This document shows positions 1 to 45,825 of a stretch of 64,000 nt of DNA, in pieces. Within the stretch, counting starts at the first letter, position 1; every line of letters starts with the position of its first letter. The notes under the pieces are model-generated. The model saw nothing but the letters and a program-made list of their open reading frames with translations. It had not been told where the DNA came from and searched no databases. Location: NCBI GenBank assembly GCA_963717295.1, contig OY970330.1, positions 2,117,902 to 2,181,901 on the forward strand, given 5' to 3'. The stretch is from Thermoanaerobaculaceae bacterium. Its GTDB lineage: Bacteria; Acidobacteriota; Thermoanaerobaculia; Multivoradales; UBA5704. The position numbers and the translations under genes were made by a program.

Positions 1-1080
1 CGAGAAGCTGACATTTCCCGCCGACCAGCGCTCCGGTTCGGGGAGCCATTCGAAGGCGTAGTCCGGGGGGCGAATCCCCTGTTCACCGGCGCGTCCCCAG
101 TCGAAGAACTCCTGCCAGCGCACCGCTTCGAGAAGCGCCTCCGCCGCCTCGCCGGCGCGCCTCGCGAGCGAGCTTCCGGGCGCGCTCCGGCCGGCGATCG
201 GCAAGTGGCGCGAGAGAGCCCCGAGCGCCTCCCGCAGCTCCGCATAGGCGCGGCCGTCGGCCAGGACGCCGACGACCACCCGGTCGCTCCCGGCGAGGCG
301 GCCGAGGAGAGCCTGCCAGACGGCCAGCAGGACCGCCTGCTCGGGAACCGCCAGCCGCCGGGCGGCGGCGGCGATCCGATCGGCGGTCCCGGCCGCGAGG
401 GCGACCAGCAGAACGCAGGGGGAGAAGCCGGCCGCGGGAGTCCGGAGGCCGGGCAGGGCCACCTCGGCCGCGAGCGCCTCCTGGAGATCGGGGGAGCTCC
501 AGCGTTGCGCGCCGACCGAGCCGCCCTCGCCTTCGAAGACCTCGTTCTGCCACTCGGCGATGTCGGCGTACTGCAACGGCCCCTCGTCCGCCGGCGGTCC
601 GTCCTGCCGGCCGTAGGCGTCGACGACCTCCCGCAACAGGTTGATCAGCCCGGGGCCATCGCTCGCCACCGCCGGCAGGGCGACGCCGAGCAGGTGCCGG
701 CCCGGTTCAGGGGAGACGAGGGCGGCGCGCAGCACCGGTCCGGCCGCCAGATCGAAGGGTTCGCGGCAAGCGGCGAGGAGCAGCTCTTCGCCCGCCTGGC
801 GAGCCTCCGGCCGGAGCAGGGAGAACTTCGCCTCCGGTTGGACCACCTGGAGGGGGATCGTCATTCCGGGTAGCGCGTGGAAGGTGGTGCGCAGGACTTC
901 ATGGCGCTCGATCGTCGCGGCGAACGCCGCGGCGAGACGGCCGGGCTCGAGCTCCCCGTCGATGCGCAGCATCGCCCAGGTCGTGAACGCCCCTTGGCCG
1001 AGCTCCGTCATCAGCGCCCAGAGGTGGCGCTGCTGCGGCGAGAGACGGGTGCCGGTCAGGGGCTTGCTCTGCATCGTCAT
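1..1080 (-). CDS. NRPS, N-terminal part (C-terminus outside window); begins with a condensation-like domain whose catalytic motif is degenerate
   Basis: My own reverse-complement translation from ATG at 1080-1078 gives an uninterrupted reading frame to position 1: MTMQSKPLTGTRLSPQQRHLWALMTE...IERHEVLRTTF... (C1 and C2 motifs present). The C3 position reads VALPAVASDGPG instead of MHHxxxDG. It is missing from the ORF track because it runs off the window edge. Confidence 0.8.
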   Translation of the reverse strand, partial: MTMQSKPLTGTRLSPQQRHLWALMTELGQGAFTTWAMLRIDGELEPGRLAAAFAATIERHEVLRTTFHALPGMTIPLQVVQPEAKFSLLRPEARQAGEELLLAACREPFDLAAGPVLRAALVSPEPGRHLLGVALPAVASDGPGLINLLREVVDAYGRQDGPPADEGPLQYADIAEWQNEVFEGEGGSVGAQRWSSPDLQEALAAEVALPGLRTPAAGFSPCVLLVALAAGTADRIAAAARRLAVPEQAVLLAVWQALLGRLAGSDRVVVGVLADGRAYAELREALGALSRHLPIAGRSAPGSSLARRAGEAAEALLEAVRWQEFFDWGRAGEQGIRPPDYAFEWLPEPERWSAGNVSFS

Positions 1081-1092
1081 CGTCGCGCCGCC

Positions 1093-4000
1093 TCAGCCCT
1101 TCTCCTGCCGCCGCTTGAGACCGGTCAAGCTCTGCCGCCGAGCCTGGAGCAGATCCTCCTCCTGAGTCCGCTGACGGACCGCCCAGGCGCCGGCCACCCC
1201 GGCCGCGAGATCGGCCAGGGACCTGCCGGGGTGCGCCTCCGCGAGCCGCAGGAGCGCTTCGAAGCCGGCCGCGAAGCGCTGGATCGTGGCCTCCTCGAAG
1301 AGGTCCGACTTGTATTCGAAAAAGCCGCGCATCCCCTCGGGCGTCTCTCTCATCTCGAGCTTCAGGTCGTGCCGCACGAGGCCGCTGTGGAGATCGATTC
1401 CCCGCATTCTCACTCCCGGCAGCTCCACGGCCGGCAGGGGGACGTTTTGGAGGACGAACCAGACCTGGAAGAGCGGGGTCCGGCTCACGCTACGCTCGGG
1501 CCGCAGAGCGTCGACCACCAGCTCGAACGGGGTGTCCTGATGCGCGAAGGCGCCGAGCGCCACCGCGCGCACCCGCCCGACCAACTCGGCGAAGGTCGGG
1601 TCGCCGCCCAGGTCCGTGCGCATCACCAGGGTGTTGACGAAGAACCCGATCAGCCCCTCGGTCTCGGCCCGGCGGCGGTTGGTGATCGGCGTGCCCACCG
1701 CGATGTCGTCCTGCCGCGAGTGCAGATGGAGAAGCAGCTGAAAACCGGCGAGGAGAACCATGAACAGGGTGGCATCGTGCTGGCGCGCCAAGGTGTTGAG
1801 CCCATCCCGCAGCTCCCTCGCGAGAGTGAAGTGGGACCGCGCTCCACGCGAGCTGGCCCCCTCGGGACCGAGAGGCCGGACCGGCAGGTCGGTGCGCCCC
1901 GGCGAGCCCCCGAGCTGGCGCTTCCAGTAGGCGAGCTGCCCGGCGAGCACCGGCCCGCGGAGCCAGGCCTGCTGCCAAGCCGCGAAATCGACGTACTGGA
2001 AGGCTGGCTCCGGCAGCGGCGAGGGCCGCCCGGCGGCGAAGGCGGCGTAGAGCGGCACCAGCTCGGTCACCAGGATGCCGCGCGACCAGGCATCGCTGAC
2101 GATGTGGTGCATGGTGAAGAGCACCAGGCAGTCGTCATCCTCGAGGTCGACCAGCGCGCACCGCAGCAGCGGCCCTTTCCCGAGATCGAAGGGGAGGGCC
2201 GCCTCGGCCCACGCGAGCCGTACGACCTCCTCCTCGCGCGCGGCCGGAAGCAAGCCGCGCAGGTCGACAACCGGCAGCGGGATGGGACGGGCCGGGGCGA
2301 TCCGCTGCCGCGGCTGGCCTGCGACCACCGGGAAGGTGGCGCGCAGCACTTCCTGCCGGCGCACGATCTCGGAGATCGCGAGCTCCAGGGCGCGCAAGTC
2401 GAACGCACCGCTCACCCGCACGGTCCCGAACACGTTGTAGGCCGGGTTTCCAGGCTCGAGCTGGTCGAGAAACCAGAGCCGAAGCTGCGGCGAGGAGAGC
2501 GGCAGCTCGCCGTTGCGAGGAATCCTGAGCAGGGGCGGCTCCTTCGTCACGGCCCGTCCGCGATCGCCGGGCTCCCCAAGGCCGACGGAGGCCGACGACG
2601 ACCGGCCGGCCGGCGGCGCCGACGCGGGCAGCGCGCCGCCGACCAGCGAGTGCATCAGCTCATGCCCCTCGTCGAGCGCGAAGAGAGGGCGGACGGCAGC
2701 GAAGCCGAGGCCGCCGATCGGACAGATCCCCAGCCCGCAGGCGGGAGCGCCGGCCCGCAGGAGCTGAAGCATCGCCCCGGCTTCGAGCAGGCAGAAATCC
2801 CGCGCGCGCTTTCCGTAGAGCGGCGCGATGGCTCCTGCCTGGGCGATCAGGAAGAGGGAGAAGGCGGAACGCTCGAAGATCGGACGGTTGATGAAATCGG
2901 CATGGATGCCGGGATCGAGCTCGACTCCGGGGGTGAGGGCGACGAGCCGGTGCTCGGCCGGATGGTAGTAGTAGGTCCCGGCCGGAATCCCCTCGACCCG
3001 CCCTGCCTTGACGTGCAAATAGACCTGCACGGGATAGACGCCACCCGCCGAGGGATAGAGGCGTTGCGGGTGATCGCCGGCCGGCAGCTCCCGCAAGCTG
3101 GCGAGGAACCTGCCGAAAGCCCGGTTGAGGATCGGCTCCGCGGCGAAGAACCGCTCGCTGCGGAGCTCCGGCGGTCCGGCGTCGCCTGCCTGCAGGTCGA
3201 GATGCCGGCGCGCGGGATCGGCCGGACGCAGGTCCAGCCGCCGCTCCTTGAAACGCTCGCGCTCTTCCGGATCGGCGACGCTCTCCGGAGACCAGCGCGA
3301 GGCCGCCTCGGGGACGGCCGTCTCCGGACGCTCCTGCGCGTAGAGCCTGGCGAGCCCGGCGACCGTCGGCGTCCGGAAGAACTCCTCCATCGTGGGCCGG
3401 AAGGACAGATCGCGCTCGAGCTGGTTGGAGATGCGAATGAGGTCGACCGAGTTCGCCCCCAGGTCGAGAAGGTTGGCATCCCACTCCACGCGGTCGAAAC
3501 CCAATACCCGTTCGACGATCTGGCGGATCGTTTCAGCCAGGGGAGACCCGGAGCTCGGGCCGCCCGGCACGGCTTCGTGGCGTTGAGTGAGGGGCGGCGG
3601 CAGGGCGCGGCGGTCGACCTTGCCGGTGGCCGACAGCGGCAGGGATTCCAGGAACACGTACGACGACGGCACCATGTAGGCCGGCAGCCTGCCCGCCAGG
3701 TAGGCGCGCAGGCTCTCCTCGCTCTCCTCGACTCCCGGCTCGCCGACCACATAGGCCACCAGGCGCTTGCTCCCCTGCGCCTCGCCCACCGCCGCCACCA
3801 CGCACGAACGCACCGCCACGTGCCGGGACAGCACCGACTCGATCTCCCCGAGCTCGATGCGGTAACCCTGCACCTTGACCTGGAAGTCCTCGCGGCCCAG
3901 GAACTCGATCGTCCCGTCCGGCAGGAAGCGCCCCAGATCCCCCGTCCGGTACAGACGCTCGCCCGTCCGCGGATGCACCAGGAAGCTCGCAGCCGTCCGC

Positions 4001-6678
4001 TCTTCCGCACCCCAGTAACCCCGCGCCACCCCGGCACCCCCAATGTACAGGTCGCCCGGCACCCAGGCCGGGCAGAGCGACAGCGCCTCGTTCAGCACGT
4101 ACATCCGCTGGTTCGACATCGCCCGCCCGTACGGGATGCTCCTCCACTGCGGCAGCACCGTCCCGATCGGGTAGAGGATCGACCAGATCGATCCCTCCGT
4201 CGCGCCCCCCAGGCTCACCACCTCCACCGCGCCCAGACGACGCGCCCGATCGGGCAGCGACAAGGGCAGCCAATCCCCCGACAGCAGCGCCAGACGAAGG
4301 CTCGGCGCCAGAGCGCTACTCCGCGACTCCGCCCAGTCCACCAGCACCTCGAACAACGCCGGCACCGAGTCCCACACCGTCACCCCATGCTCCAACATCA
4401 GCTCATGCCAGCGCCCGGGCTCGCGGGCCGCCCACGGCTCCGGCATCACCACCGCGCCACCCGCCGACAAAACGCCGAAAAGGTCGTACACCGACAGGTC
4501 GAACGACAGCGACGACAGCGCCAGAACCCGGTCCTCGGCGCCCAGACCGAAACGGCGATTGACGTCGGCCACCGTGTTGAGAGCCGCGCGGTGCTCGATC
4601 ATCACCCCCTTCGGCTCACCCGTCGAGCCCGAAGTGAAGATCACGTAGGCCAGGTCCGAGGGCGACTGCGCCGCCGCCAGAGGCGCCCCGGCCGGCTCCG
4701 GACCGTCCTCGACCAGCACCCGCTCGATGCCGGACGGCCAGTCCAGGACGGCGGCCAGGGAAGGCTGCGTCACCGCCACCCGCACACCCCCCAGCGAGAG
4801 CAGTTGGCGCAAGCGCTCACCCGGCACACCGGCCTCGATCGGCAGGTACGCTCCTCCCGACTCCAACACCCCCAGCACCCCCACCACCTGCTCCCACCCC
4901 TTCTCCATCACCACCGCCACCAACTCGTCCGGACGCACCGCGAGGTCCCGCAGGCGAAGCGCCAGAGATCGCGAACGCGCCGCCAACTCGCCGTAGGAGA
5001 GCATCCGCGACCCGGAGATCACCGCCGGCCGCCCCGGCGCCGACGCCGCCCGCGCCAGGAAACCCGAGTGCAGCAGCCCCTCCGGCAACGGCGCCGACGT
5101 CGCGTTGACCGACTCGATCAGCTCTCGATGCCGCGACGACGCCAGCGCCAGCGGCGGCTCCTCCCAAGCCCCCTCGTCTTGCGCCAGACGCTCCAGGAGC
5201 CCACGGTAGGCGGCGAACATCTCGTCCAGCAGGCCGGCCGGAAACAGATCCTCCACCGCGTCCCAGTTGAAACCGAGAGCGCCCCCCTCCTCCATGACCC
5301 GGTGGTCGAGCCACACCTGCGGGGTCTGCGAGATGCTGTAGACGTTGTCGGCCACCAGCAGGCTCGTCGTTTCAGCGGCCCCCTGCCCCTCCTGGCCGAG
5401 CGTGCTGGTGAACACCACCGGCATGCGCCCTCCCGCGGCGTTGCCGGCCCGCCGGGCGAGCTGGCGCAGAACCTTGACGCCGCTCACGTAGCTGTATTCG
5501 AGATCGCTCCAGAGCTGCTGCTGGAGGGTGCGAGCGCGCTGGCGGAAGGTGTTCGCCGTGACGTCGACGACGAGGAGCACCGTGGCCGAGAAGTCCCCCA
5601 TGATGGCGTTGACCTGCGGGTGGAGCGGCAGCCGGTTGAACAGCGTGAGGTTCAAGACGAACCGGGGGCTCTTGCACCAGGTGGCGAGGACGTTCGAGAA
5701 CGCCGCCAGCAGCAGGCCGGACGGGGTGAGCCCCTCGCGCCGGGCGGCGGCCTTGAGCGCTCCCCAACGCGCCGGATCGAGCCGCCCGAGGTGACGGGTG
5801 AAGACGGGCTGCTTGATGGTTCCAGGATCTCTTGCGAGCGGCAGTTGGGGCGGCCCCGGAAGGTTGGCCAGCCGACGCTCCCAATGCGCCTCCGCCTGCC
5901 GGTAGCGCTCGCCGCCATGGAGGGCCTTCTCCGCCAGCACGTAGTCGCGGAACGACAGTTCCAGCGAGGGCAGCTCGAGGGCTGGATCGCCGTAGAGCTT
6001 GAACAGCTCGCCGAAGAAAATCTGGAAGCTCCAGGCATCGCCGATCAGTAGATCGAGGCTCAGATGCAGGCGCGTGCGGCCCTCCTCGAAGCGGGAGGCA
6101 CGGATCTCGAACAGTGGCCAGCGATCGGTCGCGAGAACCTGATGCGAGAGCCGGTCGCGCAGCTCGCCCCGGCGGGCCTCGGCCGCGAGGGCCGGCACGC
6201 CGTGGAGCTCGAGCACCTCGATGCCGTAGCGCGGCACCTCCGGCAGGATGCGTTGCTGCCCGTCGTCGCCCACGATCATGCGCAGCATGCCGTGCCGTAG
6301 GATGAGCTGGTTCAGAGCCTGCTCCAGGCGCGCCAGATCGAGATCCTGGAAGTCGAGCTCCAGATAGAAATGCGGCGCCACGTTGCCGAGCTCGAAATCG
6401 CCGCGGCGCCCGATCCAGTAAGCCTGCTGGAGATCGGTCAGCGGGAAGGGGAGGTGCCGCTCGTGCGGCACCGGAACGATCCCCGGCAGGCTCGCGGCCC
6501 GCGTCCCCGGCTCGACCTCGAGCAGCGCCACGATCTCGGCCTTGCGCCGGCTGAGCTCGTCGCGCAGCACCGAGGTCAGCACTCCCTGGGGGGCGTTCAA
6601 GCGCAAGCGGCTTCCTTCGGTCCAGATCTGGACATCGAGGCCGCGCAGTTGAGCGACGAAATCGGCGGTCGACGTCAC
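1093..6678 (-). CDS. NRPS module Cy-A(Cys)-PCP-Ox-C (heterocyclization, adenylation, carrier, FMN oxidase, C-terminal condensation domain)
   Basis: Cy motifs FPLTDLQQAYWIGR and DLLIGDAWSF. A domain LAYVIFTSGSTGEPKGV with FDLSVYD (Stachelhaus D-L-Y) and SLGGATEGSIW, a Cys-type code. PCP LGANSVDLIRISNQL. Nitroreductase-like Ox (YPSAGGVYPVQVYL...GLGICPIGG). C domain with MHHIVSDAWS. Its start overlaps the upstream gene's stop by 4 bp. Confidence 0.9.
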   Translation of the reverse strand: MTSTADFVAQLRGLDVQIWTEGSRLRLNAPQGVLTSVLRDELSRRKAEIVALLEVEPGTRAASLPGIVPVPHERHLPFPLTDLQQAYWIGRRGDFELGNVAPHFYLELDFQDLDLARLEQALNQLILRHGMLRMIVGDDGQQRILPEVPRYGIEVLELHGVPALAAEARRGELRDRLSHQVLATDRWPLFEIRASRFEEGRTRLHLSLDLLIGDAWSFQIFFGELFKLYGDPALELPSLELSFRDYVLAEKALHGGERYRQAEAHWERRLANLPGPPQLPLARDPGTIKQPVFTRHLGRLDPARWGALKAAARREGLTPSGLLLAAFSNVLATWCKSPRFVLNLTLFNRLPLHPQVNAIMGDFSATVLLVVDVTANTFRQRARTLQQQLWSDLEYSYVSGVKVLRQLARRAGNAAGGRMPVVFTSTLGQEGQGAAETTSLLVADNVYSISQTPQVWLDHRVMEEGGALGFNWDAVEDLFPAGLLDEMFAAYRGLLERLAQDEGAWEEPPLALASSRHRELIESVNATSAPLPEGLLHSGFLARAASAPGRPAVISGSRMLSYGELAARSRSLALRLRDLAVRPDELVAVVMEKGWEQVVGVLGVLESGGAYLPIEAGVPGERLRQLLSLGGVRVAVTQPSLAAVLDWPSGIERVLVEDGPEPAGAPLAAAQSPSDLAYVIFTSGSTGEPKGVMIEHRAALNTVADVNRRFGLGAEDRVLALSSLSFDLSVYDLFGVLSAGGAVVMPEPWAAREPGRWHELMLEHGVTVWDSVPALFEVLVDWAESRSSALAPSLRLALLSGDWLPLSLPDRARRLGAVEVVSLGGATEGSIWSILYPIGTVLPQWRSIPYGRAMSNQRMYVLNEALSLCPAWVPGDLYIGGAGVARGYWGAEERTAASFLVHPRTGERLYRTGDLGRFLPDGTIEFLGREDFQVKVQGYRIELGEIESVLSRHVAVRSCVVAAVGEAQGSKRLVAYVVGEPGVEESEESLRAYLAGRLPAYMVPSSYVFLESLPLSATGKVDRRALPPPLTQRHEAVPGGPSSGSPLAETIRQIVERVLGFDRVEWDANLLDLGANSVDLIRISNQLERDLSFRPTMEEFFRTPTVAGLARLYAQERPETAVPEAASRWSPESVADPEERERFKERRLDLRPADPARRHLDLQAGDAGPPELRSERFFAAEPILNRAFGRFLASLRELPAGDHPQRLYPSAGGVYPVQVYLHVKAGRVEGIPAGTYYYHPAEHRLVALTPGVELDPGIHADFINRPIFERSAFSLFLIAQAGAIAPLYGKRARDFCLLEAGAMLQLLRAGAPACGLGICPIGGLGFAAVRPLFALDEGHELMHSLVGGALPASAPPAGRSSSASVGLGEPGDRGRAVTKEPPLLRIPRNGELPLSSPQLRLWFLDQLEPGNPAYNVFGTVRVSGAFDLRALELAISEIVRRQEVLRATFPVVAGQPRQRIAPARPIPLPVVDLRGLLPAAREEEVVRLAWAEAALPFDLGKGPLLRCALVDLEDDDCLVLFTMHHIVSDAWSRGILVTELVPLYAAFAAGRPSPLPEPAFQYVDFAAWQQAWLRGPVLAGQLAYWKRQLGGSPGRTDLPVRPLGPEGASSRGARSHFTLARELRDGLNTLARQHDATLFMVLLAGFQLLLHLHSRQDDIAVGTPITNRRRAETEGLIGFFVNTLVMRTDLGGDPTFAELVGRVRAVALGAFAHQDTPFELVVDALRPERSVSRTPLFQVWFVLQNVPLPAVELPGVRMRGIDLHSGLVRHDLKLEMRETPEGMRGFFEYKSDLFEEATIQRFAAGFEALLRLAEAHPGRSLADLAAGVAGAWAVRQRTQEEDLLQARRQSLTGLKRRQEKG

Positions 6679-9600
6679 AGCTCGATGTCCTCCCGCGGCC
6701 CCTCGCCGGCGGACCCCGCGGGCTCCTCCTGGAAGGGCTCCCAGGCGGCCGACGCCCCGATGCGCCCGCCGAGCAGCGAATGGAGCGGAACGTGGGTGTC
6801 GGCGAGGGCGAAGTGATGGCGGACGCGCGCGAAGTCGACGGCGCCGATCGGACAGAGGCCGATCTCGCAGGCCGGCGCCGCGAGCATCAGCAGTTGCCCC
6901 ATGTAGCCCGCTTCGAGGAGGCTGAAGTCACGGCCCGCGCGGCCGTACATCGGCGCCACCGCCTGGGCCTCGGCGATCAGGAAGAGCGCGAAGGCCGCCT
7001 CGTCGTAAATCGGGCGGTTGATGAACTCGACGTAGATGCCGGGATCGATCTCCGCGCCCGGCGCCAGGGCGACCAACCGGTGAGCGGCCGGATGGTGGTA
7101 GTAGACGCCCCCCTCCAGTCCCTCGACCCGCCCAGCCTTCGCGTAGAGATAGGTCTGGACCGGGTAGAGCCCGCCGGCTGACGGGTAGAGCCGCCGCTCG
7201 CCATCGGGCTCGGCGATCCGGCGGAGCACTCCCAGCAGGCTGGCGAGATCCTGCCGGGGGATTGGCTCGGGACTGAAACGGCGATAGCTGCGGCGGGTTG
7301 CGAGGAGCGCCGCGAGAGCTCCTTGCCCGTCGCCGGGCACCGCGAGGTCGAGGCTCCGCGTTCCGGACGCGTCCGCGCGGAGCCCCAAGTCGCGCTCCTT
7401 GAACGCCGCGCGCTCCGCCGGATCGAGCAGCAGCCCGAAGCGTGTCCAGGCGGACTCGACGGGATCGACCGGCGCGCTCACCGGGGCCGGCGGGGGCGCG
7501 GCCAGGCGTGCCTCGTAGTAGCCCACGACGCTCCGCGGCGTCGAGAGGCGGAACAGCTCGTCGATCGTGGGGCGTGAGCCGAACTCGATCTCGAGCAGAT
7601 TGGCCACCCGGACCATCTCGATCGATGTCGCACCGAGATCGAAAAGGAGGACGTCGGGGTCGAGGAGCTCGGTCTTGAGCACGGAACCGATCACCGCGTA
7701 GACCCGCTCGGCGAGGTTGGAGCCGCCGGGCTGAGCGCCCGGCACGGCTTCGTGGCGTTGAACGAGGGGCGGCGGCAGGGCGCGGCGATCGACCTTGCCG
7801 GTGGCCGACAGCGGCAGGGATTCCAGGAACACGTACGACGACGGCACCATGTAGGCCGGCAGCTTGCCCGCCAGGTAGGCGCGCAGGCTCTCCTCGCTCT
7901 CCTCGACTCCCGGCTCGCCGACCACATAGGCCACCAGGCGCTTGCTCCCCTGCGCCTCGCCCACCGCCACCACCACGCATGAACGCACCGCCACGTGCCG
8001 GGACAGCACCGACTCGATCTCCCCGAGCTCGATGCGGTAACCCTGCACCTTGACCTGGAAGTCCTCGCGGCCCAGGAACTCGATCGTCCCGTCCGGCAGG
8101 AAGCACCCCAGATCCCCCGTCCGGTACAGACGCTCGCCCGTCCGCGGATGCACCAGGAAGCTCGCAGCCGTCCGCTCTTCCGCACCCCAGTAACCCCGCG
8201 CCACCCCGGCACCCCCAATGTACAGGTCGCCCGGCACCCAGGCCGGGCAGAGCGACAGCGCCTCGTTCAGCACGTACATCCGCTGGTTCGACATCGCCCG
8301 CCCGTACGGGATGCTCCTCCACTGCGGCAGCACCGTCCCGATCGGGTAGAGGATCGACCAGATCGATCCCTCCGTCGCGCCCCCCAGGCTCACCACCTCC
8401 ACCGCGCCCAGACGACGCGCCCGATCGGGCAGCGACAAGGGCAGCCAATCCCCCGACAGCAGCGCCAGACGAAGGCTCGGCGCCAGAGCGCTACTCCGCG
8501 ACTCCGCCCAGTCCACCAGCACCTCGAACAACGCCGGCACCGAGTCCCACACCGTCACCCCATGCTCCAACATCAGCTCGTGCCAGCGCCCGGGCTCGCG
8601 GGCCGCCCACGGCTCCGGCATCACCACCGCGCCACCCGCCGACAGAACGCCGAAAAGGTCGTACACCGACAGGTCGAACGACAGCGACGACAGCGCCAGA
8701 ACCCGGTCCTCGGCGCCCAGACCGAAACGGCGATTGACGTCGGCCACCGTGTTGAGAGCCGCGCGGTGCTCGATCATCACCCCCTTCGGCTCACCCGTCG
8801 AGCCCGAAGTGAAGATCACGTAGGCCAGGTCCGAGGGCGACTGCGCCGCCGCCAGCGGCGCCCCGGCCGGCTCCGGGCCGTCCTCTACCAGCACCCGCTC
8901 GATGCCGGACGGCCAGTCCAGGACGGCGGCCAGGGACGGCTGCGTCACCGCCACCCGCACACCCCCCAGCGAGAGCAGTTGGCGCAAGCGCTCACCCGGC
9001 ACACCAGCCTCGATCGGCAGGTACGCTCCTCCCGACTCCAACACCCCCAGCACCCCCACCACCTGCTCCCACCCCTTCTCCATCACCACCGCCACCAACT
9101 CGTCCGGACGCACCGCGAGGTCCCGCAGGCGAAGCGCCAGAGATCGCGAACGCGCCGCCAACTCGCCGTAGGAGAGCATCCGCGACCCGGAGATCACCGC
9201 CGGCCGCCCCGGCGCCGACGCCGCCCGCGCCAGGAAACCCGAGTGCAGCAGCCCCTCCGGCAACGGCGCCGACGTCGCGTTGACCGACTCGATCAGCTCC
9301 CGATGCCGCGACGGCGCCAGCGCCAGCGGCGGCTCCTCCCAAGCCCCCTCGTCTTGCGCCAGACGCTCCAGGAGCCCACGGTAGGCGGCGAACATCTCGT
9401 CCAGCAGGCCAACCGGGAACAGATCCTCCACCGCGTCCCAGTTGAAACCGAGAGCGCCCCCCTCCTCCATGACCTGATGGTCGAGCCACACCTGCGGGGT
9501 CTGCGAGATGCTGTAGACGCTCTCGACCGTCAGAGCGTCGATGTCCCCCGTGGCCCCCTGCCCCTCCTGGCCGAGCGTGCTGGTGAACACCACCGGCATG

Positions 9601-10766
9601 CGGGCTCCCGCTCCGTCGCCCCGAACGCGAGCGAGCTCGCGCAGCAACTGCACGCCGCTCATGTAGCTGTGCTCGAGATCCCGCCAGAGCTGCTCCTGAA
9701 TCTCGCGGAGCGTCTGCCGGAGGGGCGCCGCCAGGTCGACATCGACCGCAAGCAGGTTGAGAGAGGTGAAGTCGCCGACCACCTGATTGACCTCGGGGTG
9801 GAGAGGCAGGCGGTTGAACAGTGTGAGATTCAAGGTGAAGCGTGGGCTCCGGCTCCAGGTGGCGAGCACCGTCGCGTAGATCCCGAGCAACAGGCCGGAG
9901 GGAGTCAGGCCGAGATGAGTGGCCCGCGTCTTGAGGCGCGACCAGCGCCCGGCATCCAGGGTGGCGCGCCGGCGCGCGAAGCGGGGATCGGCGAGCGCGG
10001 CGCCGCCGCTGCGCTCCAGCGGCAACTGAGGCGATGGCGGGAGCTCGGCCAGGCGCGCCCGCCAGTACTCCAGGGAACGCCGGTGAGGCTCGGAGTTACG
10101 GAGCGCCCGCTCGGCGAGCACGTAGTCGCGGAAAGAGAGCTCGAGCGGCGCCATGTCGGCCGCGGGATCCTGATAGAAGACCGCGAGATCGCCCAGCAGC
10201 AGCCGGAAGCTCCAAAGGTCCGCGATCATGATGTCGAAGCTGAAGTGCAAGCGGACCTTGCCGCCGTCGAGCAGCGAGGCCCGGATCTCGAACAGCGGCC
10301 AGCGGTCGGCGGGAAGCACCTGGTGCGACAGCTCTTCCCGCATCGCGGCGAGGTGCGCCGCGGCCTCCCGCGGATCCCGGCCGCGCAGGTCGGTCGCCGG
10401 CACCGTGAACGGCGGCACCTCGGGGAGGATCCGTTGTGACCCGTCCGCCAGGAAAACCGCGCGCAGCATGTCGTGGCGATCGATCAGCCGGCGCCAGGCC
10501 TGCTCGAAGCGGACGATGTCCAACTCCCCGCTTTCGAACTCCATATAGCTGTGGGCCGAGACGTGGCCCAGCTCGATCCCGCTCTGACGTCCGATCCAGT
10601 AGGCCTGCTGGATGTCGGTCAATGGGAACGGCAGATGCCGATCGCCGGGCGCCGGCACGACTTGCGAAAAACGGCCGCCGTCGGACGGCTTCCTGCCCAG
10701 CCGTTGGGTCAGCAATCTCAGCTTCTCGGGAGAGAGCTCCGCGATACGACCTGAGAGGTCAGTCAT
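6675..10766 (-). CDS. NRPS module Cy-A(Cys)-PCP-Ox (thiazole-forming)
   Basis: Cy motifs FPLTDIQQAYWIGR and DIMIADLWSF. The A domain is near-identical to that of 1093..6678 (DLY / SLGGATE Cys code). PCP FDLGATSIEMVRVANLL. C-terminal SagB/McbC-like FMN oxidase (YPSAGGLYPVQTYL...EIGLCPIGA). 4-bp overlaps with both neighbouring genes. Confidence 0.9.
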   Translation of the reverse strand: MTDLSGRIAELSPEKLRLLTQRLGRKPSDGGRFSQVVPAPGDRHLPFPLTDIQQAYWIGRQSGIELGHVSAHSYMEFESGELDIVRFEQAWRRLIDRHDMLRAVFLADGSQRILPEVPPFTVPATDLRGRDPREAAAHLAAMREELSHQVLPADRWPLFEIRASLLDGGKVRLHFSFDIMIADLWSFRLLLGDLAVFYQDPAADMAPLELSFRDYVLAERALRNSEPHRRSLEYWRARLAELPPSPQLPLERSGGAALADPRFARRRATLDAGRWSRLKTRATHLGLTPSGLLLGIYATVLATWSRSPRFTLNLTLFNRLPLHPEVNQVVGDFTSLNLLAVDVDLAAPLRQTLREIQEQLWRDLEHSYMSGVQLLRELARVRGDGAGARMPVVFTSTLGQEGQGATGDIDALTVESVYSISQTPQVWLDHQVMEEGGALGFNWDAVEDLFPVGLLDEMFAAYRGLLERLAQDEGAWEEPPLALAPSRHRELIESVNATSAPLPEGLLHSGFLARAASAPGRPAVISGSRMLSYGELAARSRSLALRLRDLAVRPDELVAVVMEKGWEQVVGVLGVLESGGAYLPIEAGVPGERLRQLLSLGGVRVAVTQPSLAAVLDWPSGIERVLVEDGPEPAGAPLAAAQSPSDLAYVIFTSGSTGEPKGVMIEHRAALNTVADVNRRFGLGAEDRVLALSSLSFDLSVYDLFGVLSAGGAVVMPEPWAAREPGRWHELMLEHGVTVWDSVPALFEVLVDWAESRSSALAPSLRLALLSGDWLPLSLPDRARRLGAVEVVSLGGATEGSIWSILYPIGTVLPQWRSIPYGRAMSNQRMYVLNEALSLCPAWVPGDLYIGGAGVARGYWGAEERTAASFLVHPRTGERLYRTGDLGCFLPDGTIEFLGREDFQVKVQGYRIELGEIESVLSRHVAVRSCVVVAVGEAQGSKRLVAYVVGEPGVEESEESLRAYLAGKLPAYMVPSSYVFLESLPLSATGKVDRRALPPPLVQRHEAVPGAQPGGSNLAERVYAVIGSVLKTELLDPDVLLFDLGATSIEMVRVANLLEIEFGSRPTIDELFRLSTPRSVVGYYEARLAAPPPAPVSAPVDPVESAWTRFGLLLDPAERAAFKERDLGLRADASGTRSLDLAVPGDGQGALAALLATRRSYRRFSPEPIPRQDLASLLGVLRRIAEPDGERRLYPSAGGLYPVQTYLYAKAGRVEGLEGGVYYHHPAAHRLVALAPGAEIDPGIYVEFINRPIYDEAAFALFLIAEAQAVAPMYGRAGRDFSLLEAGYMGQLLMLAAPACEIGLCPIGAVDFARVRHHFALADTHVPLHSLLGGRIGASAAWEPFQEEPAGSAGEGPREDIEL

Positions 10767-13700
10767 AGGGCTCCGTTTCCTTCGGCATAGGCCGGGTCCT
10801 CGAGCTCCGCCAGCACCTCGAGAAGCTCCGCATTGTCGACCTGGTCGGTGATCAGATGGACGATCAGCTTCGCCAGCTCCGCGATCGTCGCGCCGACGAA
10901 GAGGCGGCTGAGCGGCACCTCGATCTGCAGCGTCTCGCGCAACCGCGAGGCCAGGTCGATCGCCAGCAGCGAATGCCCGCCGAGCTCGAAGAAGTTGTCA
11001 TGGACTCCGATCTGCTCGATGCCCAGCATCTCTTCCCAAAGGCCGGCCAGCATCTGCTCGAGCTCGCTCGACGGCGCTCGATAGGAGACCCCGACGTTGG
11101 GGCGCGGATGCCGGGTTCCTGGCGCGGCGGCTCCGGTGCGCCGGCCGGCCTCGCCGGCGCTCGCCGGCGGCCGCGCCTGCTCGCGGATCAGGGTCTCGAG
11201 GTCGACGCCCGAGACGACGATCTGCGGCCCGGCACCGCTGGCCAGGGCGCGCGCGAAGGCCTCGATCCCCTCGGCCGGCCGGATGGCGCGGCCGGTCACC
11301 GGCCCTTCGGCGGCCGGCCGGTCCGTTGCGGCGGCGGCGCGCGGCGGCGTGGCGACGTCGACCTTGCGAGCGGTGAACTCCTCGACTTCGACCAGCACCT
11401 CTCCGCTCTCGGTCAGCAGGGCGATCTCGAGCACCGCCGTATCCCCGGCCGAGAGGGCTGCGTCGACGCGAAAGTGCGCCAGCAGGCGCCGCGTGAGCGG
11501 CGCGTGCTGCCGCAGCCGCCCGTAGGAGAGCGGCAGGTAGCCCGCACGGCCGGTGAGCAGCAGACCGCACGCCGTAGCGACGTCGAGCAGCGCCGGATGC
11601 AGCCCGAAGACAGCGAGATCGCCGGCGAATGCCGGCGGCAGCTCGAGGACCGCCAATCCCTCGCCGTCGCCGACGCAGCCCTCGCGCAGCACGTCCCAGC
11701 GCGGCCCCCAGAGAGTCAGCTTCCCGCCCGCCCGCCGCTCCACCGGCAAGTCGACCACCGCGCAGCGCGCGCGAATTGCCGCCGGCTCCCGGCGCGCCGG
11801 CGCCGGACCGTCGAAGGGGAGGGCGCGGCCGGTGGCGTGAAGCCGCCAGCCTTCCCCCTTTCCATCGCGGCTGGTAATCCTGAAGGTCAGCTCCCCCGCG
11901 TGCTCGGCGAGCGCCGTGCGCACCTCCGCCTCCTCCCCCTCATCGACCGCCAGGGGGGAGAGAAAGACCGCCTCCCGCAGCTCGACGCCGGTCCCGGGCC
12001 GCTGCGCGGCTACGGCGGCCCGCGCCATTTCGAGGAGCGCCGTGCCGGGGAGGACGGGACGGCCCATCAGCCGGTGCTCGGCGAGCACCCAGTGGCGAGC
12101 TGGGGAGAGACGGAGAGCCGTCTCCATGCCGCCCCCCTCGCCGAGCAGCGGGCTCGACTCGAGGGAGGGCGCCCCCGGACGCTCCGGGCGCGCGCCGAGC
12201 GACATGCCGGTACCCTCCCAGCCATACCAGTCGAGCGCGAGAACGCTCGGCCCGCCGCGGGCCGAGCGCCAATGGGCGAAGGCGTCCAGGAAGGCATTGG
12301 CGGCGACATAGTCGACGCGCCCCAGGCCGCCGGTGATCCCGAAGGTCGACGAGAACAGGGCGAAGAAGTCGAGCGACTCACCGGCGAGCAAGGCATCGAG
12401 CACCAGAACGCCCTTGACCTTGGGGTCCAGCACAGGGCTCATCCTCTCCGCGGTCTGGCGCAGGAGCAGGCCGCCTCCCGCCGCGCCCGCGGCATGAAGA
12501 ACGCCGTGGAGGGGACCGAATCGCCGCCTGGCCTCGGTCAGGACGGCGCCCAGGGCCGCCTCGTCCGTGACGTCGGCGCTCGCCACCATGACCTCGGCGC
12601 CGGCGGCCTCGAGCTCGAGGAGCTGCCGCACCTGCTCGCCCAACGGGCCTGGGTCGTCCTGCCAGAGAGGCCAATCCCCGCGGGGCGGGAAAGCGGAACG
12701 GCCGACTAGGACCAGCCGCGCCGCGAGCTCACGCGCGAGGTATCCCGCGAAGATGAGGCCGAGCCCACCCATACCGCCCGTGATCAGGTAGGTCCCACGT
12801 TGCCGGAACGGCGGCCGCTCCGCGGCGGGGAGAGGCGCGGGCTCGAACGTCTGCACCCAACGATGGGGCCCGCGCAGGGCCACCGGCGCCCCGGGGTCGA
12901 GAGCCGAGAGCTCGGCAAGCAGCCGCGCGGCACCGGCCTCCTCCCCTCTGCCCGGTGCGGGCGAAACCACGTCGATCACCCGGCAAGCCAGCCCAGGCAG
13001 CTCCTGCGGTATGACCTTGGCGGGACCGAGCACCAGCGCCGCGGCCGGCGAGAGGGGCTCGCTCCCGTCCACGTCGAACAGTCCGCTCACCACCACGCTG
13101 AGCGCCACCCGCGCCTCCCCGCTCCGCCCCGCCAGGGCTTGGGCGAGATGCAGGAGACTGTAGAAACCGAGCGTCTCGAGCTCTTCGACAGCCTCCCGAT
13201 CGGCCCTCCCCGCCGCCTTGGCACCCGTCGCCCAGAGGTGGACGATGCGAACCAGCGCCCCACCCGCCAGCGGGAGCTCGCCGAGCAGCGCCTGGTAATC
13301 CTCCAGCCGGCGCGGGGAAAGCTCATAGGCGCCCTCGCCACGGCGGGCGAAGGCCACGCCGGGAGCCACGGTCACCACCGCCTCGCCGCGTTTTGCGAGC
13401 TCGTTGGCGAGATCACCGCCGAGACCGCCGCCGGACACGAAGAGCAGCCAGAGGCCACCCCCACCGGTGGCCAGTGCCGGCGCCGGCCGCGGCAGCCGCT
13501 TCCATGACGGGACATAGAACCAATCCGCCAGATCGGATTTGCGGCCGGCCGGGGCGGGAGCATTCGCCGGCGCGGCGGCGGCCTTTCTCTCCACCCAAAA
13601 GCGGCGGCGCTCGAAAGCGTAGGTTGGCAGCGGCACCCGGCGTCGCGACACCGGCCCTTGGAAGGCCTTCCACTCGGGCTCTACGCCGTTGGTCCAGAGC

Positions 13701-16253: not shown

Positions 16254-16267
<14 letters not shown>
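10763..16267 (-). CDS. Type I PKS module KS-AT(malonyl)-KR-DH-ACP
   Basis: KS motifs GVQTACSTSLVAVHLA, EAHGTGT, GSVKTGIGHLD. AT GHSVGEY plus HAFHS (malonyl signature). KR Rossmann GTYLITGGMGGLGL with YVAANAFLD. Hotdog DH motif HRLMGRPVLPG located after the KR. ACP LGGHSLLAIDL. Confidence 0.9.
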
Positions 16268-38222
<21,955 letters not shown>

Positions 38223-38302
38223 GGAATATTCCTGTAATGCGATCCATAAATTTCACAGATCGCCTTAAAACTGCTTCGCTTAATCCTCACCGATCTTGGG
38301 AG

Positions 38303-38332
38303 AGTATATCTTTTAGTTTGACGAGCTGTCAA
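38303..38332 (-). promoter_or_regulatory. Near-consensus sigma70-type promoter for the megasynthetase operon
   Basis: Minus strand reads TTGACA-18 nt-TATACT, about 75 nt upstream of the TTG start. It sits in a ~190-bp AT-rich block (38223..38413) in a ~70% GC context. The -35 lies inside the palindrome TTGACgagctGTCAA. Confidence 0.4.
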
Positions 38333-38413
38333 TTCTCCGTGCCGTCAGTTAATTAATTGATCTTTGCTTTATTGCGCGCAATATATAAATAGAAACATTA
38401 TGGCCCTGACCCA

Positions 38414-38450
38414 CTGATTCGTAATCAGCAGGTCATCGGTTCAAATCCGA
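38414..38450 (+). repeat. 37-nt direct repeat of the 3' half (anticodon stem to T-arm) of the downstream tRNA-Thr; att-like remnant
   Basis: CTGATTCGTAATCAGCAGGTCATCGGTTCAAATCCGA matches tRNA positions 28-64 with one mismatch. No D-arm or acceptor stem is present. Confidence 0.5.
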
Positions 38451-38683
38451 AAGTCCCCGCCGAACCGGTCCTTCTCCTTGCCGCTCGGCAAGCGGCCGGG
38501 AACCCGAAACGCTGGGGCCGTCTGGCCGGCATTCTCCGCTCGCGGCCCACCAACGCTTCCCTCTGGAGGAGCTCAAGAGGAGCGGTCGCCGTCCTGCCGA
38601 GGCACCCGCCGCGGGGCCTCTGATCCGCCATCCCGCGAGCGAGCCCGGACGGTGGCGGTCCTGAGGCAGGCAGGCATCGCAGG

Positions 38684-38712
38684 TTGCCTTGCGGAGTCCG
38701 TTGCCCTACAAT
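38684..38712 (+). promoter_or_regulatory. Putative sigma70 promoter of tRNA-Thr
   Basis: TTGCCT-17 nt-TACAAT, about 40 nt upstream of the mature tRNA 5' end. Confidence 0.35.
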
Positions 38713-38751
38713 ACGCCTCCGCTTGCGTAGACCAGCCTGGGTCTCCGTTCA

Positions 38752-38826
38752 GCCGACGTAGCTCAGGGGTAGAGCAGCTGATTCGTAATCAGCAGGTCGT
38801 CGGTTCAAATCCGACCGTCGGCTCCA
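38752..38826 (+). tRNA. tRNA-Thr (anticodon CGU), CCA encoded
   Basis: Manual cloverleaf: acceptor GCCGACG/CGTCGGC, D-arm GCTC-AGGGGTA-GAGC, anticodon arm GCTGA-TTCGTAA-TCAGC (anticodon CGT), T-arm GTCGG-TTCAAAT-CCGAC, discriminator T plus CCA. 75 nt. Confidence 0.85.
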
Positions 38827-38889
38827 TTCGTAACTACGTGCAAAATAAGCACTTCCGCCGCGGCACCCACCGGCGGCCGGGGATATCGA

Positions 38890-39796: not shown

Positions 39797-39806
39797 GTAA
39801 GGCTCC

Positions 39807-40391: not shown

Positions 40392-40395
40392 GTTT

Positions 40396-41670: not shown

Positions 41671-41842
41671 ATCGAGGCTTATCCTCCATCGGCACGCCGC
41701 GGCGGAGCAAGAGAGGGGGGGCGGCTCCCGGCCTCCCCACGGCCTCGGTTCGCCCCCCCGGATTTGCGTAGTCCGGACCGCTTGCTATCATCCGGCTCGC
41801 CACGCTGGCGGACAGCGATCGGCTACGCGTACGGAGACGACC

Positions 41843-43501: not shown

Positions 43502-43544
43502 GGAGCGCGTAGGTCGCCACCCTTTTCCGACATCACTTGGCAGC

Positions 43545-44657: not shown

Positions 44658-44756
44658 TCTCGGTGCCCAGCGAAATCGCCCGGCAGTATCTATGCTACGC
44701 GAAGCTGGGGACCGGCGAGTCCCGAGCAGCCCCGGCCCAGTGGATGCTGCGCCCAA

Positions 44757-45745: not shown

Positions 45746-45825
45746 GAGATAGGATAAACCCTTACGATGCTAGACCTTTCAACCAACCCGATCTGCAGGC
45801 TGGACGCTGCCACGATCGAGCCGCC

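What the first reader, a model, noticed from the sequence alone, without database searches (positions are those of the whole stretch)
1..38222. Five-gene FAAL-NRPS-PKS assembly line predicted to build an N-acyl lipopeptide-polyketide with three thiazoles
Domain order read from the sequence: FAAL-ACP, then five C-A-PCP modules and Cy-A(Ox)-PCP, then KS-AT(malonyl)-KR-DH-ACP, then Cy-A-PCP-Ox, then Cy-A-PCP-Ox-C, then a degenerate C-like domain that continues off-window. All three Cy-module A domains carry the Cys-type pocket (FDLSVYD plus S(L/M)GGATE). Each has an FMN oxidase, so three thiazoles are expected: one before and two after a vinylogous malonate extension. The layout follows bleomycin/myxothiazol logic (PKS between thiazole-forming NRPS modules). 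The overall architecture (FAAL-primed hexamodular NRPS leading into thiazole, PKS, bithiazole and a further C domain) does not match any pathway I can name. All junctions are 4-14-bp overlaps, so it is one operon.
Basis: partly seen in the sequence, partly recalled or inferred. Interest (0 to 1): 0.75.

Follow-up and report, generated by a model that had tools for sequence, protein, structure and literature searches.

The report
Orphan thiazole-rich lipopeptide assembly line
This is a real, intact but uncharacterised giant enzyme assembly line, from an uncultured bacterium, predicted to build a fatty-acid-capped peptide with three sulfur-containing rings and (from a near-identical relative) hydroxylated aspartates; it is a good genome-mining target but every step follows known rules.

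Summary
I confirmed FAAL-ACP, five C-A-PCP modules, Cy-A(Ox)-PCP, KS-AT(malonyl)-KR-DH-ACP, Cy-A-PCP-Ox, Cy-A-PCP-Ox-C and a histidine-less C-like domain, all on the minus strand of 1-38222.

Three details are wrong:
- The last junction is a 12-nt gap, not an overlap.
- The line does not end at gene 5.
- No carbonyl would survive between the vinyl group and the bithiazole.

A metagenome contig 97% identical in DNA (L082) continues past the window edge. There, gene 5 is C*-A(Asp)-PCP-E-C. It is followed by a TauD-family dioxygenase gene and then another C*-A(Asp)-PCP-C-A(Cys-type) gene.

The "degenerate C" belongs to a distinct LPxLxxD class. In related loci this class sits next to TauD and upstream of Asp- or His-coded A domains. 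I read it as the published beta-hydroxyaspartate "interface domain".

No protein above 64% identity was found among 5.8 billion, so the cluster is orphan. Its parts have precedents: lusichelins (azoline-vinyl-thiazole-azoline) and cyanochelins (FAAL, azole, beta-OH-Asp). The likely product is an amphiphilic peptide, possibly a metallophore.

Verdict: new member of a known kind, moderate interest.

The parts
16254..38222 (-). Gene 1 (7322 aa, TTG start): FAAL-ACP, five C-A-PCP modules, then Cy-A(Ox)-PCP
   Evidence: Pfam; motif map; C/Cy alignment. The start codon follows an in-frame TGA and an AGGA.
36543..38222 (-). FAAL domain (aa 1-560), followed by an ACP (LGVDSL, aa ~627)
   Evidence: Best PDB matches are FAAL structures: 7r7e-g, 3kxw, FadD32, FadD23 and FadD28. 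The top family-specific NCBIfam models, after a generic NRPS/PKS model, are fatty-acid--AMP ligases, all below curated cut-offs. Pfam DIP2-like AMP domain.
20343..36155 (-). Modules 1-5 (C-A-PCP x5). Specificity codes: DIFDNALTFK (Ala-like?), DLTKVGHVGK (Asp), DAWFVGIVVK (Leu-like), DLFNCALT-K (Ala-like?), DPRHFGFQAK (unknown). No E domains and no dual E/C motif.
   Evidence: Codes were extracted by alignment to GrsA-PheA, recalled from memory; the control returned DAWTIAAICK.
16323..20270 (-). Module 6: Cy (DYLLADAWS)-A(Cys, DLYNLSMIWK), with an FMN Ox domain inserted between A8 and A10, then PCP
10763..16267 (-). Gene 2 (1834 aa): KS (Cys183, His320, His360)-AT (GHSVG/HAFH, malonyl)-KR-DH (HxxxGxxxxP and a catalytic Asp)-ACP. 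The DH lies after the KR.
   Evidence: Pfam order; sequence; PDB hits for KS-AT-KR and for the DH. All 7 related loci with this DH type have the KR->DH order.
6675..10766 (-). Gene 3 (1363 aa): Cy (DIMIADLWS)-A(Cys)-PCP-Ox
1093..6678 (-). Gene 4 (1861 aa): TubC_N docking domain-Cy (DLLIGDAWS)-A(Cys)-PCP-Ox-C (HHIVSDA)
1..1080 (-). Gene 5, first 360 aa only: C-like interface domain (LPAVASDG replaces HHxxxDG). In the 97%-identical contig L082 the full protein is 1979 aa: I-A(Asp, DLTKIGHVGK)-PCP-E-C.
3542..5725 (-). Repeat copy 1 (end of Cy, plus the A domain of gene 4). It pairs with 7719-9902.
   Evidence: blastn 94% over 2.2 kb. In the core (aa 417-1001) only about 19 codons differ.
7719..9902 (-). 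Repeat copy 2 (end of Cy, plus the A domain of gene 3). Both related JGI contigs end inside these repeats.

Best explanation
A single co-directional gene string encodes a hybrid NRPS-PKS assembly line. Domains and motifs are shown directly. Chemistry is inferred from established NRPS/PKS rules.

Steps inside the window:
1. A fatty acid is adenylated by the FAAL and loaded on the ACP.
2. C1 N-acylates residue 1.
3. Five all-L modules add a small residue, Asp, a Leu-like residue, a small residue, and an unknown residue.
4. Module 6 condenses, cyclises and oxidises Cys to thiazole 1.
5. The PKS adds malonate. KR and DH leave an enoyl thioester.
6. Two Cy-A-PCP-Ox modules turn its carbonyl and two Cys residues into a bithiazole. 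The result is acyl-pentapeptidyl-thiazole-CH=CH-thiazole-thiazole.
7. The C domain at the end of gene 4 passes this chain to the Asp module of gene 5.

Steps beyond the window, inferred from the 97%-identical contig:
8. The N-terminal histidine-less C-like domain of gene 5 is an interface domain. It recruits a stand-alone TauD-family Fe/2OG hydroxylase to make beta-hydroxy-Asp on the carrier.
9. That Asp module carries an E domain.
10. The TauD gene and a second interface-A(Asp)-PCP module follow, then a C-A(Cys-type) module and more.

The product is therefore an orphan N-acyl peptide-polyketide with a tri-thiazole unit and one or two beta-OH-Asp residues. It is plausibly an amphiphilic metallophore.
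For: - Domain order and catalytic motifs.
- Cys codes DLYNLSMIWK and DLY(S/D)LSLIWK, and Asp code DLTKVGHVGK.
- FAAL identity.
- Malonyl AT (HAFH).
- DH His and Asp present, with closest PDB matches being PKS dehydratases.
- Translational coupling of the genes.
- Colinear independent assemblies L140 and L082 at about 97% nt.
- Beyond the window, L082 encodes I-A(Asp)-PCP-E-C, TauD (Pfam 1.4e-47, HxE...H triad), then I-A(Asp)-PCP-C-A.
- Interface class: the 17 best homologues of the gene 5 N-terminus (two of them the L082 copies themselves) all carry LPxLxxD (one SxxLxxD variant). The roughly 28 weaker hits are canonical C domains, nearly all with HHxxxD.
- 13 of those 17 have a TauD homologue in the held DNA, mostly immediately upstream.
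- The A domain that follows codes Asp in 8 cases, a close DLTK variant in 1, and His in 2.
- The interface-domain concept and its link to siderophore beta-hydroxylases come from Reitz 2019, as cited in PMC12230676 and in bioRxiv 10.64898/2026.07.24.740629.
- A relative at 64% identity (the P0005 contigs) and the Acidobacteriota locus L016 keep the order KR-DH-ACP | Cy modules | C | C-like-A-PCP.
Against: - No product is known, and nothing here shows expression.
- Everything left of window position 1 comes from a relative (97% nt over 3.7 kb), not from this genome.
- The published interface-domain and beta-hydroxylase profile HMMs could not be run.
- L081 and L083 have LPxLxxD domains followed by Gln-like codes with no TauD in the held DNA.
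- The KR has neither the LDD motif nor the Trp motif, so alcohol stereochemistry and olefin geometry cannot be read. The DH lacks the usual Q/H after the catalytic Asp.
- A1, A4 and A5 specificities are weak or unknown.
- No TonB receptor or siderophore transporter was found in the 26 kb upstream flank, so a metal-binding role is unproven.
- No TE or other release domain was seen.
Confidence: 0.8

Rival explanations
1. Same assembly line, but the product is a non-chelating bioactive lipopeptide (antibiotic or toxin) in which beta-OH-Asp is only structural, as in syringomycin or turnercyclamycin.
For: No TonB-dependent receptor, ABC importer or iron-regulation gene was found in window 38-64 kb. 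Fully oxidised thiazoles are poor iron ligands. PMC12971057 notes that beta-OH-Asp hydroxylase models also catch non-metallophore lipopeptides.
Against: The TauD and interface domains are most similar to those in cyanobacterial FAAL / C-TauD-I-A(Asp) loci that look like cyanochelin clusters. The Cy/PKS(KR-DH)/Cy-Ox cassette is shared with lusichelin-like metallophore loci. Two alpha-hydroxycarboxylate units are a classic Fe(III)-binding set. The downstream flank is unseen.
Confidence: 0.4
2. One reading: a five-gene line in which the terminal degenerate C domain is an inactive remnant or the release point after the bithiazole.
For: Within the window only the first 360 aa of gene 5 are visible, and they lack the catalytic histidines.
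Against: The 97%-identical contig shows gene 5 continuing as A-PCP-E-C, followed by TauD and more NRPS. The domain belongs to a conserved TauD-linked class.
Confidence: 0.04
3. The PKS module does not yield a simple vinyl link. Either the oddly placed DH is inactive or isomerising (leaving beta-hydroxy or a shifted double bond), or the module acts more than once.
For: The DH lies after the KR, not between AT and KR. Its YGP and DxxxQ/H motifs deviate (WGP, DVATA). Its closest PDB matches are trans-AT-type DHs.
Against: The catalytic His (HxxxGxxxxP) and Asp are present. The same KR->DH module type occurs in cyanobacterial loci with the Cy / PKS / Cy-Ox layout. In lusichelin biosynthesis the PKS KR and DH are credited with the olefin between two azole rings.
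Confidence: 0.15
4. Assembly artefact or decayed cluster: the 2.2-kb repeat could have produced a chimeric join, or the genes may be non-functional.
For: Genes 3 and 4 share a near-identical 1.75-2.2 kb segment, and both related JGI contigs break exactly there.
Against: All ORFs are intact over 38 kb with every catalytic motif kept. The two repeat copies have different, sensible flanks (Cy7 vs dock-Cy8; Ox7 vs Ox8-C). The 64% relative has the same gene order across this point.
Confidence: 0.03

Closest known systems
Lusichelin pathway (Lusitaniella coriacea; PMC12210259)
   Same: It uses Cy-A-PCP, then a malonyl PKS whose KR and DH give an olefin, then Cy-A(Ox), then Cy. This yields azoline-CH=CH-thiazole-azoline, the same ring-vinyl-ring-ring unit predicted here. 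Cyanobacterial loci with this layout share the KR->DH module type at 31-39% (KR, DH) and 50-60% (KS, Cy, A) identity.
   Different: Lusichelins start from salicylate, have no fatty acid, no pentapeptide and no beta-OH-Asp, and keep three of four rings as thiazolines. Here all three rings have an Ox domain. No sequence of the lus genes themselves was compared.
Cyanochelins A-C (cyanobacterial lipopeptide siderophores; PMC12628792, bioRxiv 10.64898/2026.07.24.740629)
   Same: FAAL start, an N-terminal azole, PKS parts, and beta-OH-Asp made by C + TauD + interface-domain modules. Cyanobacterial loci with FAAL-C-TauD-I-A(Asp)-PCP-Cy-A... hold the closest TauD homologues (48-55%). They also hold the nearest interface-domain homologues outside the cluster's own second copy (27-31% over the full domain).
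   Different: Here TauD is a separate gene rather than fused. The order is peptide, then thiazoles, then beta-OH-Asp. There are three thiazoles and five extra modules. Identities are far below orthology.
Interface (I) domains of beta-OH-Asp/His siderophore NRPSs (Reitz et al. 2019 PNAS, cited in PMC12230676)
   Same: C-superfamily fold without the HHxxxDG histidines, placed directly before an Asp-coded A domain, with a TauD-type hydroxylase adjacent.
   Different: The original paper and its HMM were not available, so the match is by signature motif and context only. The host cluster is a thiazole-rich hybrid rather than a classical siderophore NRPS.
Epothilone EpoB/EpoC, myxothiazol MtaC/MtaD and bleomycin BlmIV/BlmIII (from my own knowledge)
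   Same: Ox inserted in the A domain (EpoB, MtaD) or placed after the PCP (MtaC, BlmIII). Thiazole followed by a KR/DH PKS gives a vinyl-thiazole (epothilone). Two consecutive Cy modules give a bithiazole (myxothiazol, bleomycin).
   Different: None has the FAAL-pentapeptide front or the beta-OH-Asp back. The only protein in the top-120 list for gene 3 named after a characterised thiazole pathway (BlmIV) is 47% identical.

Membership tests
Thiazole-forming NRPS module (Cy-A(Cys)-PCP + FMN oxidase) | Cyclisation domain with DxxxxDxxS in place of HHxxxDG | tested here: met
   DYLLADAWS, DIMIADLWS and DLLIGDAWS
Thiazole-forming NRPS module (Cy-A(Cys)-PCP + FMN oxidase) | A-domain specificity code of the Cys type (DLYNLSLIWK) | tested here: met
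   DLYNLSMIWK and DLY(S/D)LSLIWK x2, 9/10 matches. The reference code is from memory.
Thiazole-forming NRPS module (Cy-A(Cys)-PCP + FMN oxidase) | Nitroreductase-fold Ox domain with an RSxRxF FMN motif in each module | tested here: met
   Pfam PF00881 at 5.8e-15, 5.5e-23 and 1.1e-13. Motifs read.
Thiazole-forming NRPS module (Cy-A(Cys)-PCP + FMN oxidase) | Demonstrated thiazole in the product | not testable with these tools
   No producer or compound is available.
FAAL-primed lipoinitiation | Adenylating domain of the fatty acyl-AMP ligase clade, followed by ACP and a starter C | tested here: met
   PDB top hits are FAALs at E 1e-164 to 1e-65. ACP LGVDSL and C1 HHIVAD.
FAAL-primed lipoinitiation | FAAL-specific insertion that blocks CoA ligation | not tested
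   No structural alignment was made.
NRPS interface (I) domain for beta-hydroxy-Asp/His | Condensation-superfamily domain lacking the catalytic HHxxxDG histidines | tested here: met
   Pfam Condensation 1.2e-32. LPAVASDG aligns to MHHIVSDG of Txo1. The LPxLxxD class is shared by 17 homologues.
NRPS interface (I) domain for beta-hydroxy-Asp/His | Sits directly upstream of an Asp- (or His-) activating A domain | tested here: met
   Met in the 97%-identical contig L082: DLTKIGHVGK and DLTKVGHVGK. In relatives the code is Asp, Asp-like or His in 11 of the 15 where it could be read. This is off-window for this genome.
NRPS interface (I) domain for beta-hydroxy-Asp/His | Partner TauD/TfdA-family beta-hydroxylase encoded in the cluster | tested here: met
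   L082 8663-9649, Pfam TauD 1.4e-47. TauD is adjacent to 13 of 17 I-type domains. It is not inside the window.
NRPS interface (I) domain for beta-hydroxy-Asp/His | Score above threshold with the published or antiSMASH interface-domain HMM | not testable with these tools
   The profile is not in Pfam, NCBIfam, PHROGs or PADLOC. The Reitz 2019 paper is not held.
Cyanochelin BGC family | Orthologous genes and module order of the ccs clusters | tested here: not met
   Only domain-level similarity (27-55%) to cyanochelin-like loci, with a different module order.
   Best hit to gene 3 is 64% (unnamed JGI metagenome) and to gene 5 is 41%. MIBiG/antiSMASH itself was not run. Genes 1, 2 and 4 were not searched in the protein database.
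NRP metallophore (antiSMASH rule, PMC12971057) | Siderophore-type beta-hydroxylase HMM hit plus NRPS; transporters nearby as support | tested here: inconclusive
   TauD is present in the relative, but its clade was not assigned. No transporter was found in the upstream 26 kb.

The most novel reading that the evidence does not exclude
The line makes a structurally new class of amphiphilic metallophore from an uncultured soil bacterium (best NRPS hits are Acidobacteriota/Thermoanaerobaculia and Gemmatimonadota). The molecule would be an N-acyl pentapeptide joined to a conjugated thiazole-vinyl-bithiazole chromophore and two beta-hydroxyaspartates. It would be built with a non-canonical KS-AT-KR-DH-ACP module type and a split, stand-alone version of the C-TauD-interface-A(Asp) module.
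Probability: 0.3. Interest if true: 0.55.

Novelty: new member of a known kind. Interest (0 to 1): 0.4.

Why it matters
If expressed, the cluster would give a lipopeptide with no described analogue, from a lineage with almost no characterised natural products. Its parts are individually associated with metal binding or bioactivity: a conjugated tri-thiazole unit, beta-hydroxyaspartates and a lipid tail. The same contigs offer a clean test case for how a stand-alone TauD hydroxylase is recruited by interface domains. They also show a PKS module type with the dehydratase placed after the ketoreductase. None of this overturns known NRPS/PKS logic, so the value is as a prioritised genome-mining target rather than as a conceptual surprise.

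Tried and rejected
- Exact look-up of gene 3 in the contig index found nothing.
- The GTDB scan with gene 3 gave only 44-60% relatives, so the source organism is not identifiable that way.
- I first read the strong LgrA hit for A5 (E 1e-142) as evidence for Gly. The printed alignment showed the score is the sum of two A domains of about 240 bits each, so I dropped that inference. A5 remains unassigned.
- Paper searches for PDB codes 8XJZ/8XJU and 8Z0Q returned nothing useful.
- The coral-microbiome paper concerns RiPP thiazoles and is relevant only as context for BGC-rich Acidobacteriota.
- Reitz 2019 (PMC6778253) is not held, and PMC10212144 does not discuss interface domains.
- I tried to extend beyond L082 by finding the full-length downstream NRPS in the protein database. 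The best hit was 48% identical, so that metagenome's proteins are not indexed.
- The P0005 relative has no retrievable DNA.
- KR stereotyping by the LDD and Trp motifs failed because neither motif is present.
- The TauD clade could not be assigned. PDB and NCBIfam gave only generic TauD-family hits.
Full report
**Observation**

The window is about 70% G+C. Positions 1-38222 are filled by five co-directional minus-strand reading frames with coding-type GC3 of 0.86-0.89:
- Gene 1: 16254-38222, 7322 aa
- Gene 2: 10763-16267, 1834 aa
- Gene 3: 6675-10766, 1363 aa
- Gene 4: 1093-6678, 1861 aa
- Gene 5: starts at 1080 and runs off the left edge

Pfam gives AMP-binding, Condensation, PP-binding and one Nitroreductase domain in gene 1. 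Gene 2 has KS, AT, KR, PKS-DH and PP-binding, in that order. Gene 3 has Condensation, AMP-binding, PP-binding and Nitroreductase. Gene 4 has a TubC_N docking domain, the same four domains and a second Condensation. Gene 5 has a Condensation fragment.

**Domain anatomy**

- FAAL-ACP comes first.
- Five C-A-PCP modules follow, with HHIVAD, HHIIADG, HHMVCDA, HHIVCDG and HHIAADG.
- Three Cy domains carry DYLLADAWS, DIMIADLWS and DLLIGDAWS.
- A final C in gene 4 carries HHIVSDA.
- Gene 5 has LPAVASDG in place of the histidine motif.
- Every carrier domain keeps its serine.
- In module 6 the oxidase lies between adenylation motifs A8 and A10. In genes 3 and 4 it follows the PCP.
- The N-terminal domain is a fatty acyl-AMP ligase by its PDB neighbours: 7r7e-g, 3kxw, FadD32, FadD23 and FadD28.
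- The KS has its Cys/His/His triad and the AT has GHSVG and HAFH (malonyl). The DH has the HxxxGxxxxP histidine and the catalytic Asp.
- FDLSVYD and S(L/M)GGATE occur in exactly the three Cy-module A domains.

**Specificity codes**

I extracted Stachelhaus codes by alignment to GrsA-PheA. That reference sequence is from memory, and the control returned DAWTIAAICK.

| A domain | Code | Reading |
|---|---|---|
| A1 | DIFDNALTFK | Ala-like, weak |
| A2 | DLTKVGHVGK | Asp |
| A3 | DAWFVGIVVK | Leu-like |
| A4 | DLFNCALT-K | Ala-like, weak |
| A5 | DPRHFGFQAK | unassigned |
| A6 | DLYNLSMIWK | Cys |
| A7, A8 | DLY(S/D)LSLIWK | Cys |

There are no E domains and no dual E/C motif in the window.

**Small corrections to the observation**

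Three junctions overlap (8-14, 4 and 4 nt). The gene 4/gene 5 junction is a 12-nt spacer.

Genes 3 and 4 share a 2.2-kb repeat (window 3542-5725 and 7719-9902). Its core, covering the end of Cy and the whole A domain, differs at only about 19 codons.

**Relatives and what lies beyond the window**

No close protein exists in the 5.8-billion-protein collection. The best hit is 64% for gene 3 (P0005, an unnamed JGI metagenome protein) and 41% for gene 5. The GTDB scan gave 44-60% relatives, many of them Acidobacteriota/Thermoanaerobaculia and cyanobacterial genomes.

The metagenome scan with gene 4 found two contigs from one JGI sample that are the same cluster in a close strain:
- L140 (Ga0134125_10000042) aligns without gaps to window 33564-9265 at 96.9% nt.
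- L082 (Ga0134125_10000305) aligns to window 3739-1 at 97.3% nt and then continues 12 kb further.

Both contigs end inside the repeat. This explains the breaks and independently supports the window's colinearity.

In L082, gene 5 is 1979 aa. Its parts are:
- the histidine-less C-like domain;
- an A domain coded DLTKIGHVGK (Asp);
- a PCP;
- a canonical E domain (HHLAIDAVS, EGHGRE, RTVGWFT, FNYLG);
- a C domain (HHLLIDG).

A 329-aa TauD-family gene follows (Pfam 1.4e-47, with an HxE...H iron triad). After it comes an open frame that runs off the locus. That frame encodes a second C-like domain (SLPSLCADM), A(Asp, DLTKVGHVGK), PCP, C (HHIVFDG) and a Cys-type A domain. The line therefore has at least seven genes. 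No release domain has been seen yet.

**The 'degenerate C' is an interface domain**

I ran tblastn of the gene 5 N-terminus against all 159 fetched loci. The 17 best matches, which include the two L082 copies themselves, carry LPxLxxD (one carries SxxLxxD) at the active-site position. Nearly all of the roughly 28 weaker matches are ordinary C domains with HHxxxD.

Thirteen of the 17 have a TauD homologue (48-55% identical to the L082 TauD) in the held DNA, usually immediately upstream. This gives the layout C-TauD-C*-A-PCP.

The A domain that follows is coded DLTKIGHVGK or DLTKVGHVGK (Asp) in eight cases, a close DLTK variant in one, and DSASIAEVWK (His-like) in two. Two relatives (L081, L083) have Gln-like codes and no TauD in the held stretch.

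This is the context published for the interface domain. That domain is a non-canonical member of the condensation superfamily associated with siderophore beta-hydroxylases (Reitz et al. 2019). antiSMASH 8 cites and implements it (PMC12230676). [quoted passage not shown]

I could not run the published HMM and the paper is not held. Membership therefore rests on motif and context.

The simplest reading is as follows. The C domain at the end of gene 4 condenses the bithiazolyl chain onto Asp-S-PCP of gene 5. The interface domain recruits the stand-alone TauD enzyme to hydroxylate that Asp.

**The central cassette has precedents**

A 64%-identical relative (the P0005 contigs) has KR-DH-ACP | Cy-A-PCP-Ox | dock-Cy-PCP-Ox-C (no A domain) | C-A-PCP-C....

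Acidobacteriota locus L016 has Cy-A(Ox) | KS-AT-KR-DH-ACP | Cy-A-PCP-Cy-A-Ox | ... C | C*-A(Asp)-PCP.

All seven loci that contain this DH type place it after the KR. Four of them are cyanobacterial or similar loci. Three of those run Cy-A | KS-AT-KR-DH-ACP and two continue into Cy-A(Ox) (L060, L135). The fourth (L030) starts at the PKS and continues into two Cy-A modules with no Ox detected.

That is the logic described for lusichelins. There a Cy module, a malonyl PKS with KR and DH, a Cy-Ox module and a further Cy module give thiazoline-CH=CH-thiazole-thiazoline (PMC12210259).

Cyanochelins combine FAAL, an N-terminal azole, PKS parts and beta-OH-Asp modules.

Lusichelin and cyanochelin are the closer functional analogues.

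**Predicted chemistry (inferred)**

The predicted chain is:
acyl-X1-Asp-(Leu-like)-X4-X5-thiazole-CH=CH-thiazole-thiazole-CO-D-(beta-OH)Asp-(beta-OH)Asp-Cys-...

The enoyl carbonyl becomes C2 of the second thiazole.

The KR has neither diagnostic stereochemistry motif, so olefin geometry is open.

**Function**

Several features point to an amphiphilic metallophore:
- two alpha-hydroxycarboxylate residues;
- an extra Asp;
- a lipid tail;
- kinship of the TauD/interface parts with cyanochelin-like loci;
- kinship of the Cy/PKS cassette with lusichelin-like loci.

Against this, the 26 kb upstream of the cluster holds no siderophore transporter. Beta-OH-Asp also occurs in non-chelating lipopeptides. 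I put the metallophore reading at roughly one in two, and the domain-level description at high confidence.

**Novelty**

The cluster is orphan and its module combination is not described. Every step follows established NRPS/PKS rules, and large orphan hybrids of this type are common in soil metagenomes. I rate it a new member of a known kind, with moderate interest.

**Surroundings**

Upstream of gene 1 there is an AT-richer stretch containing the likely promoter.

The right-hand flank contains:
- a class-C beta-lactamase/AmpH-like gene;
- a Ser/Thr kinase with PD40 repeats, and an FHA protein;
- four B12-binding radical SAM genes, one SPASM radical SAM gene and two methyltransferases;
- an MnxG-like multicopper oxidase.

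None of these is clearly tied to the assembly line.

Noticed in passing
window 45826-58655: A dense set of four B12-binding radical SAM genes (46515-48020 +, 51627-53264 -, 54867-56252 -, 56273-57766 -), one radical SAM/SPASM gene (53045-54445 -) and two SAM methyltransferases (45826-46518 +, 57759-58655 -). It could be a separate RiPP or lipid-modification cluster. No precursor peptide was looked for.
   Followed up: partly
window 60420-63998 (-): An ORF of about 1190 aa with GC3 0.94 and no Pfam hit. It matches the NCBIfam MnxG manganese-oxidising multicopper oxidase model (E 8e-167, far below the curated cut-off). It runs off the right edge.
   Followed up: partly
window 3542-5725 and 7719-9902: A near-identical 1.75-2.2 kb repeat (end of Cy, plus the whole Cys A domain) shared by genes 3 and 4. 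It looks like recent gene conversion. Both related JGI contigs end inside it, so it breaks short-read assemblies.
   Followed up: yes
window 10763-16267 (gene 2); L016, L030, L033, L035, L060, L135, L140: The PKS module has its dehydratase after the ketoreductase (KS-AT-KR-DH-ACP) instead of between AT and KR. All seven fetched loci with this DH type share the order, including cyanobacterial lusichelin-like layouts. I do not know whether this module type has been described.
   Followed up: partly
JGI contigs carrying P0005 (samples 3300043331, 3300056388): In a 64%-identical relative, the second bithiazole module (1403 aa: dock-Cy-PCP-Ox-C) has no A domain. Its PCP must be loaded in trans, as in bleomycin. 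The window's gene 4 has instead gained a copy of gene 3's A domain.
   Followed up: no
L082 12836-15730: After the second Asp module the relative encodes an ordinary C domain (HHIVFDG) paired with a Cys-type A domain (FDLSVYD, LGGATEATIWS). This implies an uncyclised Cys (free thiol) or a later modification.
   Followed up: no
L021 17777 and L121 18906: Interface-type domains here are followed by A domains coded DSASIAEVWK (His-like). This suggests beta-hydroxy-His modules in these FAAL-containing loci (L021 cyanobacterial, L121 an unassigned metagenome contig).
   Followed up: no
window 38001-46000: G+C drops to 0.64-0.67 here, against 0.70-0.73 in the NRPS genes. The region includes an AT-rich stretch just upstream of the gene 1 start, the likely promoter. 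ORFs here (39807-40391, 40396-41670, 41519-43501) have little or no family match.
   Followed up: no
window 43545-44657 (+) and 48285-51325: A serine beta-lactamase/AmpH-like hydrolase lies 5 kb upstream of the cluster. A Ser/Thr kinase with PD40 repeats sits next to an FHA-domain gene. A link to the cluster is unknown.
   Followed up: no
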